From assembly GCA_000092065.1 (NCBI GenBank), contig CP000597.1: a DNA stretch of 64,000 nt. One strand, written 5' to 3'. Made by a program: the position numbers and the translations under genes. The notes under the pieces are model-generated. The model was not told where the DNA came from and made no database searches. It saw nothing but the letters and a program-made list of their open reading frames with translations. Below, in pieces: positions 9,040 through 64,000 of this stretch (positions are counted from its first letter, which is position 1; the number at the start of each line of letters is the position of its first letter). Source of the DNA: Ostreococcus lucimarinus. Its lineage: Eukaryota.

Positions 9040-10149
9040 CTACACATTCAATGTCCACGCCATATCAATCTCTGTCTCGGTCAGGCGCTCCGAGTACGAG
9101 CTCCTGACGCCACTTTCGTCTAAGAACGCCGTCAAACAAAATCCTAAATATTCCGTCGAGGGCGATCCGAGTCCTCGCGAGACAAGCTCGCGAGCGCCCC
9201 ACAGCGTGGCCGGTCCGTTGACGCGAACGCGAACGCGTCGCTCGCGCTCAGCCGAGGACGCCATCTCGGCATCCGACTGCGCGGCACCCCTCAAATCGTA
9301 ATCCACGCTGATCCTCAACGCGTACCCGCTCCTCACGAACACCTCCGCGATATCTCGCATACCCTCCACCGCGAGATCGAGCCGCTCCTTCCCTCCCCTC
9401 GCCGATACCGGTGCCGGCGTGCCCTTGAAGTACGCCACGTCGAAATCCTCCCCGCGATCGAACCCTCTCCGCAAGCGTTCATAAATCTTTTTCCCACACC
9501 TCTCCGCGATCGCCTCGGGCAAGTTCGCGTTATCCATCAACGCGGGATCCCTCCGCACGACCGTCACGAGACCCTCCGCTCCCGTACGTTCCTCAAAAAC
9601 CTTCGCCGCCTTTGGAATCGCTCGCGACGCGCACGCCATCTGCACGAACGTCACAAAGTCGAAATACAGCGGATCCGTGATTTTCCCTTGCTCGATCCGC
9701 AGCGGTTCGTACAAATACTTGTACGGCTCCCACTCCGACGCTCGAAACTTCCACGACGTCGCCTGGAACTCGTCCATCGGGAGCATGTCCACGTCGTCGA
9801 TCGCCTCGTACGCCGACCGCAGCAGCAGCACCGCGAACGCGCCCTCGAGCGGCTTTCGCGGGAACTTCACCGGCACCGGCGCGCTCGGCGGCGGCGCGAA
9901 CGCGAAATTTCCCGCGTTTTCGCGCGTCGGCGCGTACGCGTTCGCGCGCGCGTCCCTCGCCGCGCGCCGTCGGCCGTCGTCGTCGTCGTCGTCACCGTCC
10001 CTCGTCGCGCTCTCCGCGCGCCTCGTCGTCGCGATCAGGGGCGCCAACGCCGCGTACGCGGACATGACGTCGCGACGCGTCATCGCGCGCGCCGTCACGC
10101 GCCGACGCGGCGCCACCGACGCGCGCGGCGCGACGCGCGCGCGGCACAT
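9040..10149 (-). CDS. Hypothetical protein, probably organelle-targeted (R/A-rich N-terminus)
   Basis: A 369-aa ORF with coding-like composition after about residue 80 (…PLRIEQGKITDPLYFDFVTFVQMACASRAIPKAAKVFEERTG…). It is convergent with the JmjC gene. No family assigned. Confidence 0.5.
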   Translation of the reverse strand: MCRARVAPRASVAPRRRVTARAMTRRDVMSAYAALAPLIATTRRAESATRDGDDDDDDGRRRAARDARANAYAPTRENAGNFAFAPPPSAPVPVKFPRKPLEGAFAVLLLRSAYEAIDDVDMLPMDEFQATSWKFRASEWEPYKYLYEPLRIEQGKITDPLYFDFVTFVQMACASRAIPKAAKVFEERTGAEGLVTVVRRDPALMDNANLPEAIAERCGKKIYERLRRGFDRGEDFDVAYFKGTPAPVSARGGKERLDLAVEGMRDIAEVFVRSGYALRISVDYDLRGAAQSDAEMASSAERERRVRVRVNGPATLWGARELVSRGLGSPSTEYLGFCLTAFLDESGVRSSYSERLTETEIDMAWTLNV

Positions 10150-12167: not shown

Positions 12168-13007
12168 TTACTTCAAGAACGTGCACGTGATCCACATCGC
12201 GACAAAGCTGAACAACGCGAGTATCAGCTCCGGGGCCACACCCTGCGGGAACAGTGGGATGTACACCGGCACGATCGACCCCACGAGCCACGCGAGCAAA
12301 AGCGCGATGAGAGAGTCCCTAAAAGCCTTTCCGAGCGTTCCCTGACCCCCGCGCTTTTCGTTCAAAAAGTACACGCACGTCCCGAACGCGCACGCCATCT
12401 GAAACGCCGGTCCACTCGTCGCCGGCGCCGCGATCGCCCATCCAGATATGATCACATACAGCATCGTCCGTCTGATCAGCGTCTGTTGATCCGGTTTCGC
12501 GAACATCGCCTTCACCCGCTGCACCAACGGCGCGTCGTAATCGACCCCATCCTTATTCTTCTCCTTCTTCATCTTCCTAAGTCCCTTCTGCATCTTCCGC
12601 GTCGACAGTCTCTCGGATATCACCTTATCGTACGCCGCCTCGATCGCCTCCACCCCTCGTTCGTCTCCCGCGTGCTCGCGAATCAAGTAATTAAACGCGC
12701 TCGACACCTCCTCGCTCGTCGCGTCCGCGTCGATCCCTAACCTCTTGTACGGGTCCTTCTCCTTCGTCCGCGCGAACGCGTTCGTCGGCCGCTTCGCCGC
12801 CGCGCCTCGAGCGTCGCTCTCGGCGTCGCCGCGCGCGTCGAACCCGCCGTCGTCGGCGCTCGCGCCGTCCATCGCGGCGTCGGCGCGTCGGACGAGCGAA
12901 TCGCGGCGTCGCGCGCCGCCTCGCGCCTCGGCGCCTCGGCGCGCGCTCGAGAGGCGCGCGCGCGCGCGAACGGCGACGCGCGGGCGCGCGACGACGACGC
13001 GCGACAT
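12168..13007 (-). CDS. J-like-domain membrane protein, DUF3353 (CPP1/CDF1-like, chaperone-like protein of POR), chloroplast-targeted
   Basis: A J-domain-like segment, DPYKRLGIDADATSEEVSSAFNYLIREHAGDE, is followed by C-terminal transmembrane helices (…MLYVIISGWAIAAP…LLLAWLVGSIVPVYIPLF…). The N-terminal presequence is R/A-rich. Confidence 0.55.
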   Translation of the reverse strand: MSRVVVARPRVAVRARARLSSARRGAEARGGARRRDSLVRRADAAMDGASADDGGFDARGDAESDARGAAAKRPTNAFARTKEKDPYKRLGIDADATSEEVSSAFNYLIREHAGDERGVEAIEAAYDKVISERLSTRKMQKGLRKMKKEKNKDGVDYDAPLVQRVKAMFAKPDQQTLIRRTMLYVIISGWAIAAPATSGPAFQMACAFGTCVYFLNEKRGGQGTLGKAFRDSLIALLLAWLVGSIVPVYIPLFPQGVAPELILALFSFVAMWITCTFLK

Positions 13008-44368: not shown

Positions 44369-45607
44369 ATGGCGACGACGACGACCCCGCGCGTCGCGAC
44401 GACGGGCGCGCGGGCGGCGCGAGGCCGACGCGCGAGGACGGAGGCGACGCGCGCGAACGCGACGGCGACGCGCGCGACGGGACGACGCGCGAACGGGACG
44501 GCCGCGAGGGACGCGCGAGCGAAAAGCGCGGGAAAGGACGACGGCGCGAGCGATCAGGGAGGGTCGAGCGGCGTGGAAAGGGAGACGCGCGCGCGACGGA
44601 CGCCGAGCGCGCGAGAGAGCGCGATGGAGGCGGCGGCGGCGCGCGAGGCGGAAAACGCGGGGATGAAGCCGTCGTCGAGCGGGGAGACGGCGACGCGGAC
44701 GGTGAAGGACGAGGCGCTGGAGATACCGTTTCAGAGCACGAGTCCGAGGAAACGGGTCGGGCGAACGCGGTTGTTGCGGACGCCCATGGCGGGGGGGGTG
44801 GTGAGCCGAGACACCAAGGATAGCAACTTGCCCTCGATGGCGACGGCGGCGAGAAACTTGATGGAACTCGCGGATTACGGCGATTTGAGCACGACGATGA
44901 GCGACATGCATCATCGTCGCGCTGGGTACCCGTTCGGAAGCACGGTGGACTTCGCGACGGACGCCACGGGGCATCCAATCTTTTGCCTGGCGCCGCTCGC
45001 GATTCACACGCGCAACATCGCCGCCGACGGCAAGTGCTCGTTGACGGTGAAGATGAGCGGTTGGGGCGGGTTGGCGAACGCCAGGGTGACGATATTCGGC
45101 GACGTTCAGCGCTTGCCCAACGGAGAGTATCAAACGGCGGCGAACGAAATCTTCAAGTCCAAGTATCACGCGCGCAAGGAAGCCATCGACATGGAGGATC
45201 GCTGGGGCGACTACACGTATTATCGCATGAATCGCATCGTCGACGTGTACTTCGTCGGTGGGTTCGGAACGTTGAACTGGATCAAGCTCGACGAGTACTG
45301 CTCGACGTCCCCCGACACGATCGTCACCGCCGCGCACGGTAAGAGCGTCATCGAAACCTTGGGCGAGCTCAACACGCGCTTCTCCCAGCGTCTCGCCGCG
45401 CACATGGGCAATCTCTTGGACCTCGTCGTGGACGATTTATGGATCATCTCCATCGATCGTCGCGGTATGGACGTTCGCGTGCGCACCGACGGCAGCTCGT
45501 TGATTCGCAGAATCTCTTTCGACACCGACGTCGAGTGTTTCGACGACGCCAAGCGCGCCGTCGAGTGCGCGTTGACCAACGACGACCTCTGTCGCGGCGA
45601 GTTCTGA
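44369..45607 (+). CDS. Pyridoxamine 5'-phosphate oxidase-like FMN-binding split-barrel protein (plant At3g03890/GluTR-binding-protein-like), plastid-targeted
   Basis: The T/A/R-rich transit peptide is followed by …AARNLMELADYGDLSTTMSDMHHRRAGYPFGSTVDFATDATGHPIFCLAPLAIHTRNIAADGKCSLTV…, which matches the PNPOx-like fold. The start is an ATG at 44369. Confidence 0.6.
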   Translation: MATTTTPRVATTGARAARGRRARTEATRANATATRATGRRANGTAARDARAKSAGKDDGASDQGGSSGVERETRARRTPSARESAMEAAAAREAENAGMKPSSSGETATRTVKDEALEIPFQSTSPRKRVGRTRLLRTPMAGGVVSRDTKDSNLPSMATAARNLMELADYGDLSTTMSDMHHRRAGYPFGSTVDFATDATGHPIFCLAPLAIHTRNIAADGKCSLTVKMSGWGGLANARVTIFGDVQRLPNGEYQTAANEIFKSKYHARKEAIDMEDRWGDYTYYRMNRIVDVYFVGGFGTLNWIKLDEYCSTSPDTIVTAAHGKSVIETLGELNTRFSQRLAAHMGNLLDLVVDDLWIISIDRRGMDVRVRTDGSSLIRRISFDTDVECFDDAKRAVECALTNDDLCRGEF

Positions 45608-50341: not shown

Positions 50342-52915
50342 TTAAACGTTGTGCACCACGTACGAGCTCTTGAACGCGGTGGTACCGCTCTTCCGAGACT
50401 TGTGCAACGCGATGGAGCCAACGATGACGCCAGCGAGGGCGACGATGAAGCTAATCGCCGCGAGCGCCTCCGCGGCGCGAATTTCCTTTGTGGACACGCC
50501 TCCCGAGCTGAGACCGTGCACGTGCGCCACCAAATCGGCGTAGCTCGTGCTGGAGAATTCCGTCTTGATGTCGCAGTGGACGTGATACGCTTTGTGGTAT
50601 TGGCCGAGTTCGGAGTCGGTGAAACCAAACACGCCCTTCAAGTTGGCGATGGCGGTGCAATAGTTGTCGTAGGCCCACGTACCGCGCGCGGGCGCGGTGC
50701 GCACGTCGAATAGCGCGTCGAAGAATTGGTACGCATCCGAGAACGTCGACGTACCCTTGGCCTTGACGTCGCCCGCGATGACGCGGTACAACGCCTGGCC
50801 CTCGGCTTGGTCGTCCCCGTACGCCGCGACGGCGCCGCTCTTGAGCGCCGTGTCAATCTTGAACGCGTACTTGATGACGCACTGAGAGTACACGATGCGC
50901 AGTTGCCTTTCGATGCCCTCGTAAATGTTGTGGAGGTCGGTGCAGTCCTTCTGTTCTTGCCCCGAGCGCAACAGCTTCAGGATGGTCTCGTACGGCTTCG
51001 CCGTGTGCGCCGTGCCCATGGTGCCGAACTCGACGCCGCGCTTTTGCGCGCGACCCATGACGGAGTGGTAGCCGTCGCCGATGAGCAGCGCCGCGGCGAC
51101 GTCCCACGCAGCCTCTTGATCCGCAGACTTTTGATTGTTCACGCACACCGTGGAGCTTTGAGCATAACTCAAGTGATTGAGCGCGGCGTGGAAGCCGACG
51201 GCGTCCAACATCGTCTTTTCAATCATTTCTTTGGCCGCTTCGTGATAATTTTTACCGCTCTTCGCGAGCGTCACGGCCTCGGCGATGTAACCTGAAAGCG
51301 GCGTACCCGTAGCCGCATGTTTGCCCGACGACCCCACGGCAACCTTGGTGAATTCGTACTGCGTCATACGCGGGTTCCATTCGTTCGACGTGTACGGCGC
51401 GGTTTCGGTCCACGCCTTGTACGCTTCCACGAAATCAGACGACATGTCATCCCAAGAGGCGCTGACGTCTTCGTTGCGAATGAACGTGTCCATCTCGGCG
51501 ACGATGTGCGCCACGTTCTTGCTCAAGCCCAACGCCTTTGCGTACTGCGTCTTCGCGCTCACGGTGGCTTGCGCGGTGCTGCTGTGCGTGAGTTCTGACG
51601 TGAAGTACGAGCCGGCGAGAGACTTGAGCTCTCTGGCCGGATCCTCGTTCGTTTCCAACGCGCAGTTCACGTAAGCGGCGTCGGAGTACGTGCCGAGCGA
51701 CGCCTCCTTGACGCCGTGAGAAGACATCGTGTTGATGAAGTCGACGACGTGCGTCCTGGCGGTGCAATAATTGCCGTAATCCCAGGTGCCTCTCTGCTTT
51801 GAGATTTCGATGTCAAAGAAGGTATTGAAGAACCCAACGGCACCACTGCAAGCGGTCGCGCACTTACGAAGCATGTCACCGGCGATGACGCGGTACATCG
51901 CCTGACCTTCCGCGACGATGTCGTCGTAGGCGTTGACGGATGCCCCGGACGCGAGCTTCTTGTCAATCTTGTATGCATACTTCAAGATGGATTGCGCGTA
52001 CACCACCCGCATCTGCGCTTCGATGTCTTCGTAGATGTTGTGCAAATCAGCGCACATGTCGTTCGTGCCCTCGATTTCTTGACCGTCTCGTAAGAGTTTG
52101 ACGATGGTTTCGTACGGCTTGGAGATGCCCGCCGCGCCCATGGTGCCGAACTCGAGCCCACGCTTTTGCGCGCGCCCCAAGACGGAGTGATATCCATCAC
52201 CGATGAGTAACGCGGCGGCGACGTCCCAATGCGCCTTCATAGCGTCGGTTTGAGAGCTACCCGTGCACAAGCTGCCGGCACCCACGTCTTCTTGCGCCGC
52301 CGCCAACGCCAACAGCGAGCCTTGATAGCCGACGGCGTCCCAGACGGTCTTTTCGATGATTTCGCGCATCGCCTCGAGCCTGGTTCCGGCCGTATCCGCT
52401 TTCGCGATAACCACCGCCTCGGCGATGTACGCCTCCAACGGATTAGCGACAGCAGTCACGCCATTGATGCCGCGCAAGACCTTCGGAGTGGAAATCCAAG
52501 TCCACTCGTTGGACGTCGTTGCATAGTTGGCGACGGCGTCCTCGACCCAAGTCTTCGACATCGAGTCGTAATTCGTATCCATTTTGTCCCAATTATCAGA
52601 GCTGTTCGTGAACGTGCGAAGCTCGGCGATGATGTGCGCGACGCTGTTCCCGTAGTCGAGCGCGTTTTCAATACTCGTGTGCGCGTTGCCGCCGTTCACT
52701 GATTCCGTCGTCGTACTCAACGTATTGAGCTTGTAGCTCCCCGCCAGCGTCGAGATGTGCGTCAGTGCGTTCGCACCGACGCCGCACGCGCTCATCACCC
52801 CCATCGCCGCGATCGTCGCCCGCTTCGTCGCGCGTCGCCCTCGCGCGCATCGCCCCCGCCTCGCGTCCCCGTCGTCGTTCTTCTTCCCCGTCGCGTCTCC
52901 CGCGCGTCGCGCCAT
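50342..52915 (-). CDS. FEA1/ISIP2a (phytotransferrin)-like iron-assimilation protein with an internally duplicated ~330-aa domain, signal peptide and C-terminal TM anchor
   Basis: There are two homologous halves. The motif HWDVAAALLIGDGYHSVLGRAQKRGLEFGTMG in the first half and WDVAAALLIGDGYHSVMGRAQKRGVEFGTMG in the second are near-identical. A C-terminal TM, AISFIVALAGVIVGSIALH, follows. The architecture fits algal Fea1/ISIP2a-type ferric uptake proteins; the family assignment is from memory. Confidence 0.55.
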   Translation of the reverse strand: MARRAGDATGKKNDDGDARRGRCARGRRATKRATIAAMGVMSACGVGANALTHISTLAGSYKLNTLSTTTESVNGGNAHTSIENALDYGNSVAHIIAELRTFTNSSDNWDKMDTNYDSMSKTWVEDAVANYATTSNEWTWISTPKVLRGINGVTAVANPLEAYIAEAVVIAKADTAGTRLEAMREIIEKTVWDAVGYQGSLLALAAAQEDVGAGSLCTGSSQTDAMKAHWDVAAALLIGDGYHSVLGRAQKRGLEFGTMGAAGISKPYETIVKLLRDGQEIEGTNDMCADLHNIYEDIEAQMRVVYAQSILKYAYKIDKKLASGASVNAYDDIVAEGQAMYRVIAGDMLRKCATACSGAVGFFNTFFDIEISKQRGTWDYGNYCTARTHVVDFINTMSSHGVKEASLGTYSDAAYVNCALETNEDPARELKSLAGSYFTSELTHSSTAQATVSAKTQYAKALGLSKNVAHIVAEMDTFIRNEDVSASWDDMSSDFVEAYKAWTETAPYTSNEWNPRMTQYEFTKVAVGSSGKHAATGTPLSGYIAEAVTLAKSGKNYHEAAKEMIEKTMLDAVGFHAALNHLSYAQSSTVCVNNQKSADQEAAWDVAAALLIGDGYHSVMGRAQKRGVEFGTMGTAHTAKPYETILKLLRSGQEQKDCTDLHNIYEGIERQLRIVYSQCVIKYAFKIDTALKSGAVAAYGDDQAEGQALYRVIAGDVKAKGTSTFSDAYQFFDALFDVRTAPARGTWAYDNYCTAIANLKGVFGFTDSELGQYHKAYHVHCDIKTEFSSTSYADLVAHVHGLSSGGVSTKEIRAAEALAAISFIVALAGVIVGSIALHKSRKSGTTAFKSSYVVHNV

Positions 52916-53030: not shown

Positions 53031-53070
53031 CGGGTTTATCGCGAGATGGCGCGCCATCTCGCGATAAACC
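53031..53070. promoter_or_regulatory. Perfect 40-bp palindrome (20+20) in the bidirectional promoter between the FEA1-like gene and the DUF4281 gene
   Basis: ggtttatcgcgagatggcgc|gccatctcgcgataaacc. The two arms are exact reverse complements, and the centre is a GGCGCGCC (AscI-like) site. It lies 116 bp upstream of the FEA1-like ATG at 52915. Confidence 0.7.
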
Positions 53071-53296
53071 AATCATTCGGACATTCGTCATTGGGTTCAC
53101 GCGCGTCACAATGCGTCCCGTCGATCTCGCGTTTCGATTGGTTCGCGCGAGATCGAGCTCGTCGCTTTCGTTCGACGTCGGACGACATCGGACATTCGGA
53201 CACGCGATCCTGACGCGCGATTCTGACACACGGATCGCATCGCGCGCGTCGCGTCGCGTCGAGGCGCGTTCGTCGAGGCGCGAGTGCGCGGCGTCG

Positions 53297-54261: not shown

Positions 54262-55530
54262 ATGTGGACGAGCGATGAGGATGAAAAGCTGTTGGCGCTC
54301 ATCGAAAAGCACGGCGCGCGGCGATGGAACTCGCTCGCGAGCGCGATGGAGACGAAAACCGCCAAGCAGTGTCGAAGGCGTTGGAGCGGCCACTTGACGA
54401 CGGAAATCAAAGAGCACGAGTGGACGGAGGCGGAAGATCTCGCCCTGCTCGACGCGCACGAAAAGCTCGGTAACAAGTGGACGGCGATCGCCAAGTTAGT
54501 GGGCGGGAGAACCGATAACGGGGCGAAGAATAGATTCAAGGCGCTCGTGGACAAGCAGACGAAGAGCAAGCGAAGACGCTACGACGCAAAGGGAACGGCG
54601 CGGCGCGCGATGGTGGCGAGCGAAAGATCGACTCCGGCGAAGCGAGGCCGGAAAAAGCCCGCGCCGCGCTCACCGACGAATCAAGAGGGGATCGGCCGCG
54701 ATGTCAAGCGATCGAAAGTCGAGTCGTCGTTGGAGGAACTCGCGGCGACGCGAACGGGCGTCGGCAAGAACGGCATATCGCCGTCGCTTTTCGTGAGTTC
54801 GCCCACGAACTCGGCGAGCGCGGATCGACAGAATAAGATGTGGCGTCCGAGTTTGTCGATAAAAGTCAACAGCCGCGAGCAGAGCGCGGCGGGCGCGAGC
54901 GGGATGGACGGCTTCAAGACTGGCGCGTCGCTGAGCAACTTCCTTCCAACCAACTATTCGGTAGGGAAGACCCTGAGCTTGTCGTGCGCCGAGCTCGATT
55001 TGTTGCGAGAAGTGCAAGAGATGGTTTCACCGCGCGTCATGGCGAATTCGCACGGTGGCGGAAGCAACGCGAATAGCGCGTTCAATCGTTACGGCGGCGG
55101 CGAGAAATCAAACGCGACGAACGACATGCAGAGCGTGATGAATTGGTTACTCAGCGCGAGACCCGCGGGTGGTGGAGACGGTGCAGATAATAGATACAAA
55201 GCCAACGGAATCGTCTCGAATGGTGACGCGGTGACCGTGTCATTAGCCCCGAACGAAGACGGCACGGCGAACATCCAGCGAGGAACGACGTTGAAGCACT
55301 TCCTGAGCATCAAAGCTGACGCACCGACGCCCAAAGGCGGTAAAGGCGCGGATTCGAAACCGATTTCAATTCCGTCGTTCACGTCGAGCGAGTTGAATTT
55401 GCTCTTGAACGCCCTCGGTACGACACCTTCCGTCGCGAGCAGCCCCGTCGCCGCGAGCGAGTCCGTAGTTGCGAAACCGCGAGCGCGACCGACGCGAACG
55501 CCTCAAAGGCGCGCGTCGCGAAGGTCGTGA
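54262..55530 (+). CDS. R2R3-type MYB transcription factor
   Basis: It has two SANT/Myb repeats at the N-terminus: WTSDEDEKLLALIEKHGARRWNSLASAMETKTAKQCRRRWSGHL and WTEAEDLALLDAHEKLGNKWTAIAKLVGGRTDNGAKNRFKAL. The C-terminal region is low-complexity. Confidence 0.85.
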   Translation: MWTSDEDEKLLALIEKHGARRWNSLASAMETKTAKQCRRRWSGHLTTEIKEHEWTEAEDLALLDAHEKLGNKWTAIAKLVGGRTDNGAKNRFKALVDKQTKSKRRRYDAKGTARRAMVASERSTPAKRGRKKPAPRSPTNQEGIGRDVKRSKVESSLEELAATRTGVGKNGISPSLFVSSPTNSASADRQNKMWRPSLSIKVNSREQSAAGASGMDGFKTGASLSNFLPTNYSVGKTLSLSCAELDLLREVQEMVSPRVMANSHGGGSNANSAFNRYGGGEKSNATNDMQSVMNWLLSARPAGGGDGADNRYKANGIVSNGDAVTVSLAPNEDGTANIQRGTTLKHFLSIKADAPTPKGGKGADSKPISIPSFTSSELNLLLNALGTTPSVASSPVAASESVVAKPRARPTRTPQRRASRRS

Positions 55531-63575: not shown

Positions 63576-63851
63576 ATGGTCATCGACAACGCTTTCGACG
63601 ACAACGTCAAGATTGTGTTCGACCTCACCAACCAGGCGCCACTCACTCGCCATGGCACAAACATTCTGGCAGTTGACAACCACCTTGAGAGCGCGGAAGA
63701 GAAGAAGAGAAACTCGCCCGCATGGGCGAACTTTGTTCCCTTGGACGGCTTGACGAGCGAATTCGTGCCTTTTGCAATCGGTTGGTACGGTGAGATAGGT
63801 GGAGAAGCGTTGAGTTTCATTCGAAGAATCGTTGGCTTTTTTAGGGTTTAG
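63576..63851 (+). CDS. Terminal ORF (91 aa) abutting the telomere; its stop codon is provided by the first TTTAGGG repeats. Possibly a truncated gene fragment.
   Basis: MVIDNAFDDNVKIVFDLTNQAPLTRHGTNILAVDNHLESAEEKKRNSPAWANFVPLDGLTSEFVPFAIGWYGEIGGEALSFIRRIVGFFRV*. The last codons are …ggc ttt ttt agg gtt tag, with the final three lying inside the telomere repeat. The segment has lower GC and a non-low-complexity composition. No family recognised. Confidence 0.3.
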   Translation: MVIDNAFDDNVKIVFDLTNQAPLTRHGTNILAVDNHLESAEEKKRNSPAWANFVPLDGLTSEFVPFAIGWYGEIGGEALSFIRRIVGFFRV

Positions 63852-64000
63852 GGTTTAGGGTTTAGGGTTTAGGGTTTAGGGTTTAGGGTTTAGGGTTTAG
63901 GGTTTAGGGTTTAGGGTTTAGGGTTTAGGGTTTAGGGTTTAGGGTTTAGGGTTTAGGGTTTAGGGTTTAGGGTTTAGGGTTTAGGGTTTAGGGTTTAGGG
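63843..64000 (+). repeat. Telomere: about 22 tandem TTTAGGG repeats (plant/green-algal type), G-strand 5'→3' toward the window end
   Basis: A perfect tttagggtttaggg… array runs from 63843 to the end of the window. There is no subtelomeric satellite between it and unique sequence. Confidence 0.95.

What the first reader, a model, noticed from the sequence alone, without database searches (positions are those of the whole stretch)
50342..52915. Iron-uptake FEA1/ISIP2a-like protein with a clear internal two-domain duplication and a membrane anchor
The 857-aa protein consists of two ~330-aa homologous halves, each containing (H)WDVAAALLIGDGYHSV(L/M)GRAQKRG(L/V)EFGTMG. It has an N-terminal signal-like region and a C-terminal TM helix. 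This pseudo-two-lobed architecture recalls phytotransferrin-type ferric-binding proteins. The gene sits next to the palindrome and motif-bearing promoter and 6 kb from a phosphate transporter, so this subtelomeric stretch is enriched in nutrient-acquisition genes (Pi, Fe, Mg via MgtE).
Basis: partly seen in the sequence, partly recalled or inferred. Interest (0 to 1): 0.55.

Follow-up and report, generated by a model that had tools for sequence, protein, structure and literature searches.

The report
Ostreococcus two-domain FEA1 iron-uptake protein

Summary
Window 50342-52915 (-) is one 857-aa ORF. Its two ~350-aa halves are 47% identical (E=3e-99), and it has one C-terminal transmembrane helix. 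From Met38 the protein is identical to NCBI XP_001422274.1, a 'predicted protein' of Ostreococcus lucimarinus CCE9901. It is 54% identical, end to end, to the O. tauri protein that carries the peptide used to raise the anti-Ot-Fea1 antibody. It is therefore the ortholog of Ot-Fea1 (ostta18g01980). Lelandais et al. [quoted passage not shown] Membership of the FEA1 family is supported directly: NCBIfam FEA1_rel_lipo gives E=1e-26, and a profile-profile comparison with Pfam-Fea1-positive proteins gives 99.5%. The transferrin comparison does not hold at fold level. The predicted domain is all-helical, has no significant match to any solved structure, and shows no transferrin, periplasmic-binding-protein or imelysin relation. 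The gene lies 11 kb from a real telomere. The 'nutrient island' idea is weak, because most neighbours are housekeeping genes. Verdict: interpretation essentially right, already known, low interest.

The parts
50342..52915 (-). Complete intron-less CDS (857 aa plus stop) of the O. lucimarinus Fea1 ortholog. The NCBI model XP_001422274.1 uses Met38 (starts at 52804, 820 aa).
   Evidence: ORF list. Exact-sequence look-up of the Met38 form gives XP_001422274.1 / A4SA30, O. lucimarinus CCE9901. It is 54% identical over 845 columns to Ot-Fea1.
52760..52915 (-). N-terminal targeting region (aa 1-52): basic n-region, h-region IAAMGVMSACGVGA, and an A-N-A | L cleavage-type site.
   Evidence: Hydropathy and motif scan. 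The n-region and h-region are conserved in frame in the 85%-identical lineage L010, and orthologs have comparable N-termini. pLDDT is below 50 for aa 1-50. PSORT II predicted a signal peptide for Ot-Fea1 (PMC4855317). No predictor was run here.
51620..52759 (-). Fea1 domain 1 (aa 53-432), all-helical. Family-conserved residues: E185, K189, D231, G239, K251, R252, Y306, Q308, Y313, D318, E336, G337, C384, G408.
   Evidence: Self-alignment. D1 is closer to D1 of orthologs than to D2. Model. Conservation.
50546..51619 (-). Fea1 domain 2 (aa 433-790), all-helical. Family-conserved residues: E563, K567, D605, G613, K625, R626, Y676, Q678, Y683, D688, E705, G706, C753, G771.
   Evidence: NCBIfam NF038033, best stretch aa 535-773. 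hhalign 99.5% against Pfam-Fea1-positive proteins. Single-domain AF2 model, pLDDT 90.4, pTM 0.91.
52136..52231 (-). Core motif copy 1, HWDVAAALLIGDGYHSVLGRAQKRGLEFGTMG (aa 229-260).
   Evidence: Sequence. The WD...G...RAxKR..xFGT core is the best-conserved block of the whole family.
51014..51109 (-). Core motif copy 2, AWDVAAALLIGDGYHSVMGRAQKRGVEFGTMG (aa 603-634).
   Evidence: Sequence. Family conservation.
50402..50476 (-). Single C-terminal transmembrane helix (aa 814-838).
   Evidence: Kyte-Doolittle 19-residue mean up to 2.5. Modelled as a helix. Conserved in all orthologs.
50345..50401 (-). Short cytosolic tail (aa 839-857, KSRKSGTTAFKSSYVVHNV) with K839, R841, K849, S851, Y852 and V853 invariant across orthologs. 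Candidate sorting or endocytosis signal.
   Evidence: Invariant columns of the 24-sequence ortholog alignment. The tail is near-identical in O. tauri and other lineages. The function is inferred.
53033..53070 (.). 38-nt perfect palindrome GGTTTATCGCGAGATGGCGCGCCATCTCGCGATAAACC, at -118 to -155 from the Met1 ATG, in the divergent FEA1 / ABA4-like promoter.
   Evidence: It is unique in the window. Only its left arm is present in closely related strains (L009, L010), and it is absent upstream of O. tauri FEA1. It is probably not a conserved regulatory element.
53133..53143 (-). CCAAT-box-like element GAACCAATCGAAAC, conserved upstream of FEA1 orthologs in five lineages.
53199..53206 (-). CGCGTGTC element. 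Its reverse complement GACACGCG contains CACGCG. It is conserved upstream of FEA1 orthologs in five lineages.
   Evidence: Two 8-mers were shared by all five lineages, and 0.5% of Markov-1 randomisations gave two or more.

Best explanation
The gene encodes the Ostreococcus lucimarinus ortholog of Ot-Fea1. It is a type I membrane protein of the secretory pathway. After removal of an N-terminal signal sequence, two tandem all-helical Fea1 domains face the outside of this wall-less cell. One C-terminal transmembrane helix holds them in the membrane, and a short, strictly conserved tail faces the cytosol. By homology with Ot-Fea1, C. reinhardtii FEA1 and, according to the literature, diatom ISIP2a, each domain is expected to bind ferric iron at the cell surface. 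The protein would then feed a non-reductive high-affinity Fe(III) uptake route, either by internalisation through the conserved tail or by hand-off to a permease. Expression is expected to rise under iron limitation.

Shown here: the ORF, the duplication, the TM helix, orthology with Ot-Fea1, FEA1-family membership of both halves, retention of the family-conserved residues in both halves, and the all-alpha predicted fold.

Inferred: iron binding, surface location, the uptake route and the regulation. The likely ligand set is also inferred: the family-conserved acidic and tyrosine residues D231/D605, Y306/Y676, Y313/Y683 and E336/E705, with K251-R252 / K625-R626 as a possible anion site. I could not check this in three dimensions.
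For: Orthology. The Met38 form equals XP_001422274.1 of O. lucimarinus. The O. tauri protein CEG00808.1 (P0077) contains the anti-OtFea1 immunogen TKYEFPKTRASGNY (PMC4855317). It aligns with the window protein at 54% identity over 845 columns. D1 pairs with D1 and D2 with D2 across species. The neighbours ABA4-like, Myb and MgtE are shared.

Family. NCBIfam FEA1_rel_lipo gives E=1.2e-26 in two stretches. The domain profile finds 171 proteins among 1.84 billion representatives. Of 95 distant hits scanned, 27 match Pfam Fea1 PF07692. hhalign against Pfam-Fea1-positive proteins gives 99.5%, E=2.7e-23, 307 columns. Further PF07692-annotated hits scored E=1e-34 to 1e-59 against the broad profile.

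Topology. One TM helix at aa 814-838. Signal-like N-terminus with an AxA site. In D2, C591, C658, C753 and C781 are invariant in the ortholog alignment; in D1, C384 and C418 are invariant and C217 nearly so.

Both halves keep every family-conserved residue. Three R/K-E/D-x-x-E motifs are present (aa 184, 276, 562), the same number reported for Ot-Fea1.

Function of the ortholog, from the literature. Ot-FEA1 is among the most strongly Fe-limitation-induced and most highly expressed genes of O. tauri, and the protein was identified among the iron-loaded proteins (PMC4855317). [quoted passage not shown] 2019, as cited in PMC7676907).
Against: Pfam's own Fea1 model does not hit this protein directly at E<=1. 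The NCBIfam score of 93 bits is far below that model's equivalog cutoff of 250. Family membership therefore rests on profile-profile comparison and on hits to intermediate sequences.

No expression, binding or localisation data exist for the O. lucimarinus protein itself. The metal site is unverified, because no solved structure of any family member was found and model coordinates could not be inspected. The tail lacks a canonical YxxPhi motif (it reads Y-V-V-H). Ot-Fea1 levels also respond to zinc (PMC4855317), so metal specificity is not fully settled.
Confidence: 0.85

Rival explanations
1. It is a true transferrin-type (phytotransferrin) receptor. Each half would be a transferrin-like lobe that binds Fe(III) together with carbonate, homologous to animal transferrin lobes and to periplasmic binding proteins.
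For: Two homologous halves recall the transferrin N and C lobes. The family-conserved residues include Asp, two Tyr and a Lys-Arg pair, reminiscent of the Asp/Tyr/Tyr/His plus Arg set of transferrin (the comparison is from general knowledge). The literature calls ISIP2a a phytotransferrin and describes Ot-Fea1 as distantly related to it (PMC7676907, PMC7972479).
Confidence: 0.07
2. It is an imelysin / peptidase-M75-like (EfeO/EfeM-type) metal-binding protein rather than a FEA1 protein.
For: Three M75-family structures appear among the Foldseek hits: Algp7 5y4c (E=2.5), EfeO 7wgu (E=3.2) and EfeM 7q1g (E=4.9). Both families are helical bundles linked to FTR1/EfeU-type iron uptake. One distant relative is fused to an FTR1 domain, and one matches DUF4856.
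Confidence: 0.03
3. It is a FEA1-family surface protein whose main role is not iron import. It could buffer or sense another metal such as zinc, or serve as a structural surface protein.
For: Ot-Fea1 abundance rises under zinc deficiency as well (PMC4855317). The role of C. reinhardtii FEA1 is described as still debated (PMC4855317, PMC7676907). No functional data exist for this protein.
Against: Ot-Fea1 was found loaded with iron, and it is the one uptake-related gene induced by Fe limitation under all conditions tested (PMC4855317). It was purified with ferric iron (cited in PMC7676907). The strict conservation of acidic and tyrosine residues in both halves fits a hard-cation site.
Confidence: 0.05

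Closest known systems
Ot-Fea1 (Ostreococcus tauri ostta18g01980; CEG00808.1 / XP_022840596.1), Lelandais et al. 2016
   Same: It is the ortholog. Identity is 54% over the full length. The architecture is the same: signal-like N-terminus, two Fea1 domains, C-terminal TM helix. The cytosolic tail is near-identical (…TAFKSSYVVHNV). Three R/K-E/D-x-x-E motifs are present. The flanking genes ABA4-like, Myb and MgtE are the same. Both genes are subtelomeric.
   Different: It comes from a different species and has a longer basic n-region at the N-terminus. In O. tauri the gene is the last one before the telomere, about 0.2 kb from the repeats. Here it is 10.9 kb from the telomere, with the block arranged differently. 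No experimental data exist for the O. lucimarinus protein.
Chlamydomonas reinhardtii FEA1/FEA2 and the Pfam family Fea1 (PF07692, low iron-inducible periplasmic protein)
   Same: The domain is homologous over about 307 columns (hhalign 99.5% against Pfam-Fea1-positive chlorophyte proteins). It shares the core WD…G…RAxKR…GT, YxQ…(K/R)YA…D and AEG…R motifs and a conserved YC.
   Different: FEA1 and FEA2 are about 360 aa, single-domain and secreted (literature). This protein has two domains and a TM anchor with a cytosolic tail. Pfam's model does not reach it directly. C. reinhardtii FEA1 itself was not compared here.
Diatom ISIP2a / phytotransferrin (pTF)
   Same: According to the literature, ISIP2a carries a Fea1-type domain, is a cell-surface Fe(III)-binding protein induced by low iron, and has a C-terminal endocytosis motif (PMC4855317, PMC7676907, PMC7972479). 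The expected working principle is the same.
   Different: The relation was not tested here, because no ISIP2a sequence was available and none of the hits was named. Domain number and anchor type may differ. Most distant relatives end directly in a hydrophobic C-terminus without a tail. Carbonate synergy is shown only for the diatom protein.
Bacterial FEA1-related lipoproteins (NCBIfam NF038033) and DUF4856 (PF16148)
   Same: Both halves match NF038033 (E=1.2e-26). One distant family member matches DUF4856 above its cutoff, in the conserved core region.
   Different: The score of 93 bits is far below the equivalog cutoff of 250. The bacterial proteins are single-domain lipoproteins of unknown function.
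Transferrin / lactoferrin
   Same: Tandem duplication gives two potential Fe(III) sites in one chain. Asp/Tyr-rich conserved positions sit next to a basic pair.
   Different: The predicted fold is all-alpha, not an alpha/beta periplasmic-binding-protein fold. No sequence, profile or structural similarity was found. The resemblance is at most analogy.

Membership tests
FEA1 family (Pfam Fea1 PF07692 / FEA1-related) | Significant similarity to the Fea1 domain over most of its length | tested here: met
   hhalign of the domain alignment against 12 relatives of a Pfam-Fea1-positive chlorophyte protein (two confirmed by hmmscan, PF07692 E=1e-24 and 4e-28): 99.5%, E=2.7e-23, 307 columns. NCBIfam NF038033 E=1.2e-26, two stretches. 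27 of 95 distant profile hits match PF07692. Caveat: direct hmmscan of the protein against PF07692 gives no hit at E<=1.
FEA1 family (Pfam Fea1 PF07692 / FEA1-related) | Family-wide conserved residues (WD, G, RAxKR, GT, YxQ, (K/R)YA, D, AEG, YC, G) | tested here: met
   Conservation was computed over 190 domains of distant relatives and over a 24-sequence curated alignment. All these positions are present in both D1 and D2 of the window protein.
FEA1 family (Pfam Fea1 PF07692 / FEA1-related) | Secreted or cell-surface location (signal peptide) | tested here: inconclusive
   Basic n-region, h-region, an A-N-A|L site and conserved cysteines fit a secretory protein. No signal-peptide predictor or localisation data were available.
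FEA1 family (Pfam Fea1 PF07692 / FEA1-related) | Induction by iron deficiency and Fe(III) binding | not testable with these tools
   Reported for the O. tauri ortholog only (PMC4855317; Scheiber et al. 2019 as cited in PMC7676907).
Ot-Fea1 orthogroup (prasinophyte two-domain, TM-anchored Fea1) | Full-length collinear similarity to Ot-Fea1, with D1-D1 and D2-D2 correspondence | tested here: met
   54% identity over 845 columns with the protein that carries the anti-OtFea1 peptide. D1 against ortholog D1 is 41-59% identical, and it exceeds D1 against ortholog D2 in the closer orthologs.
Ot-Fea1 orthogroup (prasinophyte two-domain, TM-anchored Fea1) | C-terminal TM helix plus conserved cytosolic tail | tested here: met
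   TM helix at aa 814-838. H838, K839, R841, K849, S851, Y852 and V853 are invariant in 24 orthologs.
Ot-Fea1 orthogroup (prasinophyte two-domain, TM-anchored Fea1) | Conserved gene neighbourhood | tested here: met
   ABA4-like, Myb and MgtE flank the gene in the window, in O. tauri chromosome 18 and in a metagenomic lineage. Pterin-4a dehydratase, mTERF and GDI recur nearby.
Transferrin superfamily | Alpha/beta bilobal periplasmic-binding-protein-type fold in each lobe | tested here: not met
Transferrin superfamily | Sequence or profile similarity to transferrin domains | tested here: not met
   No Pfam transferrin hit. No PDB sequence hit with the protein or with two family profiles at E<=10.
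Transferrin superfamily | Fe(III) bound synergistically with carbonate by Asp/Tyr/Tyr/His plus Arg/Thr | not testable with these tools
   Conserved D, Y, Y, E and K-R positions exist. Their geometry could not be inspected, and no binding data exist.
Imelysin / peptidase M75 (EfeO, EfeM, Algp7) | M75 domain profile match, or a significant fold match | tested here: not met

The most novel reading that the evidence does not exclude
The Fea1 domain, which the literature says is shared with diatom ISIP2a ('phytotransferrin'), may be a distinct all-helical Fe(III)-binding fold with no solved representative and no structural relation to transferrin. On that reading the 'bilobal' two-domain prasinophyte proteins, and perhaps phytotransferrins in general, would be functional analogues of transferrin that arose by independent tandem duplication. 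They would not be homologues of transferrin. This Ostreococcus protein models with high confidence and would be a convenient target for the first experimental structure of the family.
Probability: 0.6. Interest if true: 0.45.

Novelty: already known. Interest (0 to 1): 0.15.

Why it matters
Fea1 and ISIP2a-type proteins are central to how marine picophytoplankton acquire scarce ferric iron. Ostreococcus lacks the classical reductive uptake system, so this protein is probably its main high-affinity iron receptor.

For this window the value is mainly in annotation. A gene labelled 'predicted protein' in O. lucimarinus can be named as the Ot-Fea1 ortholog, and its start codon probably lies 37 codons upstream of the NCBI model.

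Two by-products may be useful to specialists. First, the domain is confidently predicted to be all-helical with no solved relative, which bears on whether 'phytotransferrins' are really related to transferrin. Second, two short promoter elements are conserved upstream of FEA1 in five prasinophyte lineages. They are candidates for an iron-responsive element in a group where no iron regulon has been identified.

Tried and rejected
- Direct Pfam scan of the protein gave only noise (HTH_47, DUF3961) and no Fea1 hit.
- Searches of PDB sequences found nothing relevant, whether with the protein, the ortholog domain profile or a broad family profile.
- Foldseek with the full-length two-domain model (pTM 0.52) gave meaningless long alignments. 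I therefore modelled a single domain.
- The AFDB50 fold library was not available, so the model could not be compared with predicted FEA1 or ISIP2a structures.
- Imelysin / EfeO relation: weak Foldseek hits were followed up by hhalign against the E. coli EfeO M75 domain, with no signal. Rejected.
- A second 829-aa gene next to Ot-FEA1 in O. tauri looked like a paralog because of its length. It is unrelated, and the window holds only one copy.
- The word-indexed homolog search with the broad profile returned only 15 hits and no named FEA1 or ISIP2a protein. Cluster look-ups of ten distant hits gave only Tetraselmis and Tetradesmus names. The ISIP2a link therefore could not be tested.
- McQuaid et al. 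2018, which reports the iron and carbonate ligand residues of pTF, is not held.
- The upstream palindrome is not a conserved regulatory element. Only its left arm is present in close strains, and it is absent in O. tauri.
- GGCGCGTGTC is not a general promoter motif here. It is not enriched in the window (18 matches against 28.7 expected).
- The 'nutrient island' idea: PiT was not among the called genes around FEA1 in any other lineage examined.
Full report
**Observation**

Window 50342..52915 on the minus strand is a single uninterrupted ORF of 857 codons. Splitting the protein at residue 440 and aligning the halves gives 47% identity over 354 columns, E=3e-99. Residues 77-422 align with residues 453-785.

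The only strongly hydrophobic stretch is aa 814-838 (19-residue Kyte-Doolittle mean up to 2.5). It is followed by a 19-residue tail. The N-terminus has a long basic stretch, a moderately hydrophobic segment (IAAMGVMSACGVGA) and an A-N-A|L site.

**Identity of the organism and the gene**

An exact-sequence look-up of the protein starting at Met38 returns NCBI XP_001422274.1 / ABP00591.1 / UniProt A4SA30, 'predicted protein [Ostreococcus lucimarinus CCE9901]', on a 366,173-bp record. A neighbouring ORF also matches an O. lucimarinus protein exactly. The window ends in (TTTAGGG)n at 63840-64000. It is therefore a chromosome end of O. lucimarinus, and the gene starts 10.9 kb from the telomere repeats.

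**Orthology with Ot-Fea1**

The homolog search found 44 close relatives, all unnamed. One cluster (54% identity, full coverage) contains O. tauri CEG00808.1 / XP_022840596.1. That protein contains TKYEFPKTRASGNY. This is the peptide used to raise the anti-OtFea1 antibody in Lelandais et al. 2016 (PMC4855317). It is therefore Ot-Fea1 (ostta18g01980).

The window protein aligns with it over 845 columns at 54% identity. In the closer orthologs, each of the two domains is closer to the same-position domain than to its own partner. D1 against ortholog D1 is 41-59% identical and D1 against ortholog D2 is 42-46%. D2 against ortholog D2 is 49-63%. The duplication therefore predates the divergence of these lineages. 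One metagenomic relative has gained a third domain (1197 aa).

Gene order supports orthology. In O. tauri chromosome 18 (CAID01000018.2) Ot-FEA1 is transcribed divergently from an ABA4-like gene, with Myb and MgtE genes beyond it. The window has FEA1(-), ABA4-like(+), Myb(+), MgtE(+). Metagenomic lineages show the same set plus pterin-4a dehydratase, mTERF and GDI in varying order.

**What is already published**

Lelandais et al. [quoted passage not shown] They report three R/K-E/D-x-x-E motifs. [quoted passage not shown] They also note that Fea1 domains have multiplied independently several times in algae. [quoted passage not shown]

The window protein has the same three motifs (REIIE at 184, RDGQE at 276, KEMIE at 562).

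**Family membership, tested here**

- Pfam gives no Fea1 hit on the protein itself.
- NCBIfam NF038033 'FEA1-related lipoprotein' matches both halves, E=1.2e-26, 93 bits against a cutoff of 250.
- A profile of 13 single domains, searched against 1.84 billion representative proteins, finds only 171 proteins at E<=0.001. This is a small family.
- Of 95 distant hits scanned, 27 match Pfam Fea1 PF07692, best E=3e-54.
- hhalign of the domain alignment against 12 relatives of a Pfam-Fea1-positive chlorophyte protein gives 99.5% probability, E=2.7e-23, over 307 columns. This covers nearly the whole domain.
- A broader profile hits further PF07692-annotated proteins at E=1e-34 to 1e-59.

Both halves are therefore bona fide Fea1 domains. 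Across the whole family the conserved positions are WD, G, RAxKR, GT, YxQ, (K/R)YA, D, AEG, YC and G. Both halves keep all of them.

**Fold**

- The full-length AF2 model has mean pLDDT 77.6 and pTM 0.52. The two domains are confident but their relative arrangement is not.
- D2 alone gives pLDDT 90.4 and pTM 0.91, and it is all-helical.
- Foldseek gives nothing at E<0.99.
- No transferrin or periplasmic-binding-protein fold appears.
- Three M75 / imelysin-type iron proteins (Algp7, EfeO, EfeM) appear at non-significant E=2.5-4.9. hhalign against the E. coli EfeO M75 domain gives no signal.
- No profile reaches any solved structure.

The two-lobed resemblance to transferrin is therefore architectural only.

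**Mechanism**

The best-supported picture is a type I membrane protein. It would have a signal sequence, two extracellular Fea1 domains, a TM helix and a short cytosolic tail. In D2, C591, C658, C753 and C781 are invariant in the ortholog alignment; in D1, C384 and C418 are invariant and C217 nearly so.

K839, R841, K849, S851, Y852 and V853 of the tail are invariant in 24 orthologs. This points to an interaction with cytosolic sorting machinery. Most distant relatives instead end directly in a hydrophobic segment.

Iron binding, surface location and the uptake route are inferred from the O. tauri and diatom literature. The ligand set D/Y/Y/E with an adjacent K-R is inferred from conservation alone.

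**Start codon**

NCBI uses Met38. The sequence RRGRCARGRRATKRA(T/A)IAAMGV upstream of Met38 is conserved in frame in a lineage that is 85% identical. Other orthologs also have basic n-regions before the hydrophobic core. Met1 is therefore the more likely start.

**Context claims**

PiT (PHO4, E=7e-111) and MgtE (E=3.5e-21) are confirmed. The other genes of the terminal ~22 kb are:
- a CREG-barrel / DUF2470 protein;
- an unknown protein;
- a cytochrome-b5-domain protein;
- an ORF with only a sub-threshold EF-hand match;
- ABA4-like;
- Myb;
- HSP20;
- a ~900-aa unknown protein;
- GDI;
- mTERF;
- pterin-4a dehydratase.

PiT was not among the called genes around FEA1 in any other lineage examined. 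A nutrient-acquisition island is not supported.

**Promoter**

The palindrome is a perfect 38-mer at 53033-53070 and is unique in the window. Close strains keep only its left arm, and O. tauri lacks it.

Two 8-mers are shared upstream of FEA1 in five lineages: ACCAATCA, within GAACCAATC(A/G)AAAC, and CGCGTGTC. Only 0.5% of Markov-1 randomisations give two or more shared 8-mers. The reverse complement of CGCGTGTC contains CACGCG, the FeRE2 hexamer of Chlamydomonas FOX1. Such a hexamer is common in GC-rich DNA, so this remains a lead only.

**Verdict**

The feature is an ortholog of a published, experimentally studied protein. Novelty: already known. Interest: low.

Noticed in passing
window 52805-52915 (-), codons 1-37: The NCBI model XP_001422274.1 starts at Met38 (820 aa). 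The upstream basic stretch is conserved in frame in an 85%-identical lineage, and other orthologs have similar basic n-regions before the hydrophobic core. The deposited gene model is probably truncated at the N-terminus by 37 codons.
   Followed up: partly
window 53133-53143 and 53199-53206; L004 (O. tauri) about -231 and -202; L001, L006, L007 upstream of FEA1: Two short elements are shared upstream of FEA1 orthologs in five lineages: GAACCAATC(A/G)AAAC, a CCAAT-box type, and GACACGCG(CC). Only 0.5% of Markov-1 randomisations give two or more shared 8-mers. In three lineages the two elements lie 27-29 nt apart. GACACGCG contains CACGCG, the FeRE2 hexamer of Chlamydomonas FOX1 (PMC4259311). 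They are candidate iron-responsive promoter elements, untested.
   Followed up: partly
window 53033-53070: A perfect 38-nt palindrome lies in the divergent FEA1 / ABA4-like promoter and is unique in the window. Close strains (L009, L010) keep only the left arm, and they carry a 29-nt insertion after the CCAAT box that resembles that arm. O. tauri has no palindrome. It looks like a recent, strain-specific rearrangement, or else the metagenome assemblies collapsed it.
   Followed up: partly
L004 (O. tauri CAID01000018.2, 332904-345706), positions 12490-12803 and about 9520-9600: Ot-FEA1 is the last gene on O. tauri chromosome 18, about 0.2 kb from the (TTTAGGG)n repeats. Degenerate telomere-like repeats (GGTTTAAGGTTTAGGATTTGGGT) lie both upstream and, inverted, downstream of the gene. 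Compared with O. lucimarinus, the FEA1-ABA4-Myb-MgtE-HSP20-GDI block is rearranged relative to the telomere.
   Followed up: partly
window 44369-45607 (+): A 412-aa ORF about 4.7 kb from FEA1 has a CREG beta-barrel domain (PF13883, E=7e-17) and a weak DUF2470 match. JGI names it 'putative heme iron utilization protein'. In the diatom P. tricornutum a CREG-fold protein (pTF.CREG1) colocalises with phytotransferrin (PMC7972479). This may be coincidence. The Ostreococcus protein has a basic, Ala/Arg/Thr-rich N-terminal extension.
   Followed up: no
window 54262-55530 (+) and orthologous loci L004, L006, L007, L008, L009: A two-repeat Myb transcription-factor gene lies within a few kb of FEA1 in the window, in O. 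tauri and in four metagenomic loci, although the surrounding order varies. It was absent within 10 kb in one lineage (L001). I could not tell whether this is plain synteny or a regulatory pairing.
   Followed up: no
protein aa 839-857 (window 50345-50401); distant relatives P0124 and P0130: The cytosolic tail …AFKSSYVVHNV is almost invariant in orthologs. Two distant TM-anchored relatives also end in -NV. Most other family members end directly in a hydrophobic, GPI-signal-like C-terminus with no tail. This may be a trafficking signal. It is not a canonical YxxPhi motif.
   Followed up: no
P0010 (metagenomic relative, 1197 aa): One lineage carries three Fea1 domains (D1, D1', D2), so a further tandem duplication of domain 1 has occurred. 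Lelandais et al. 2016 reported that even numbers of domains are generally detected.
   Followed up: no
distant family hits: Among 95 distant relatives, one carries an FTR1 iron-permease domain (PF03239, E=1e-45) in the same protein. That would be a physical fusion of a Fea1-type domain with the permease it is thought to serve. The protein was not examined individually.
   Followed up: no
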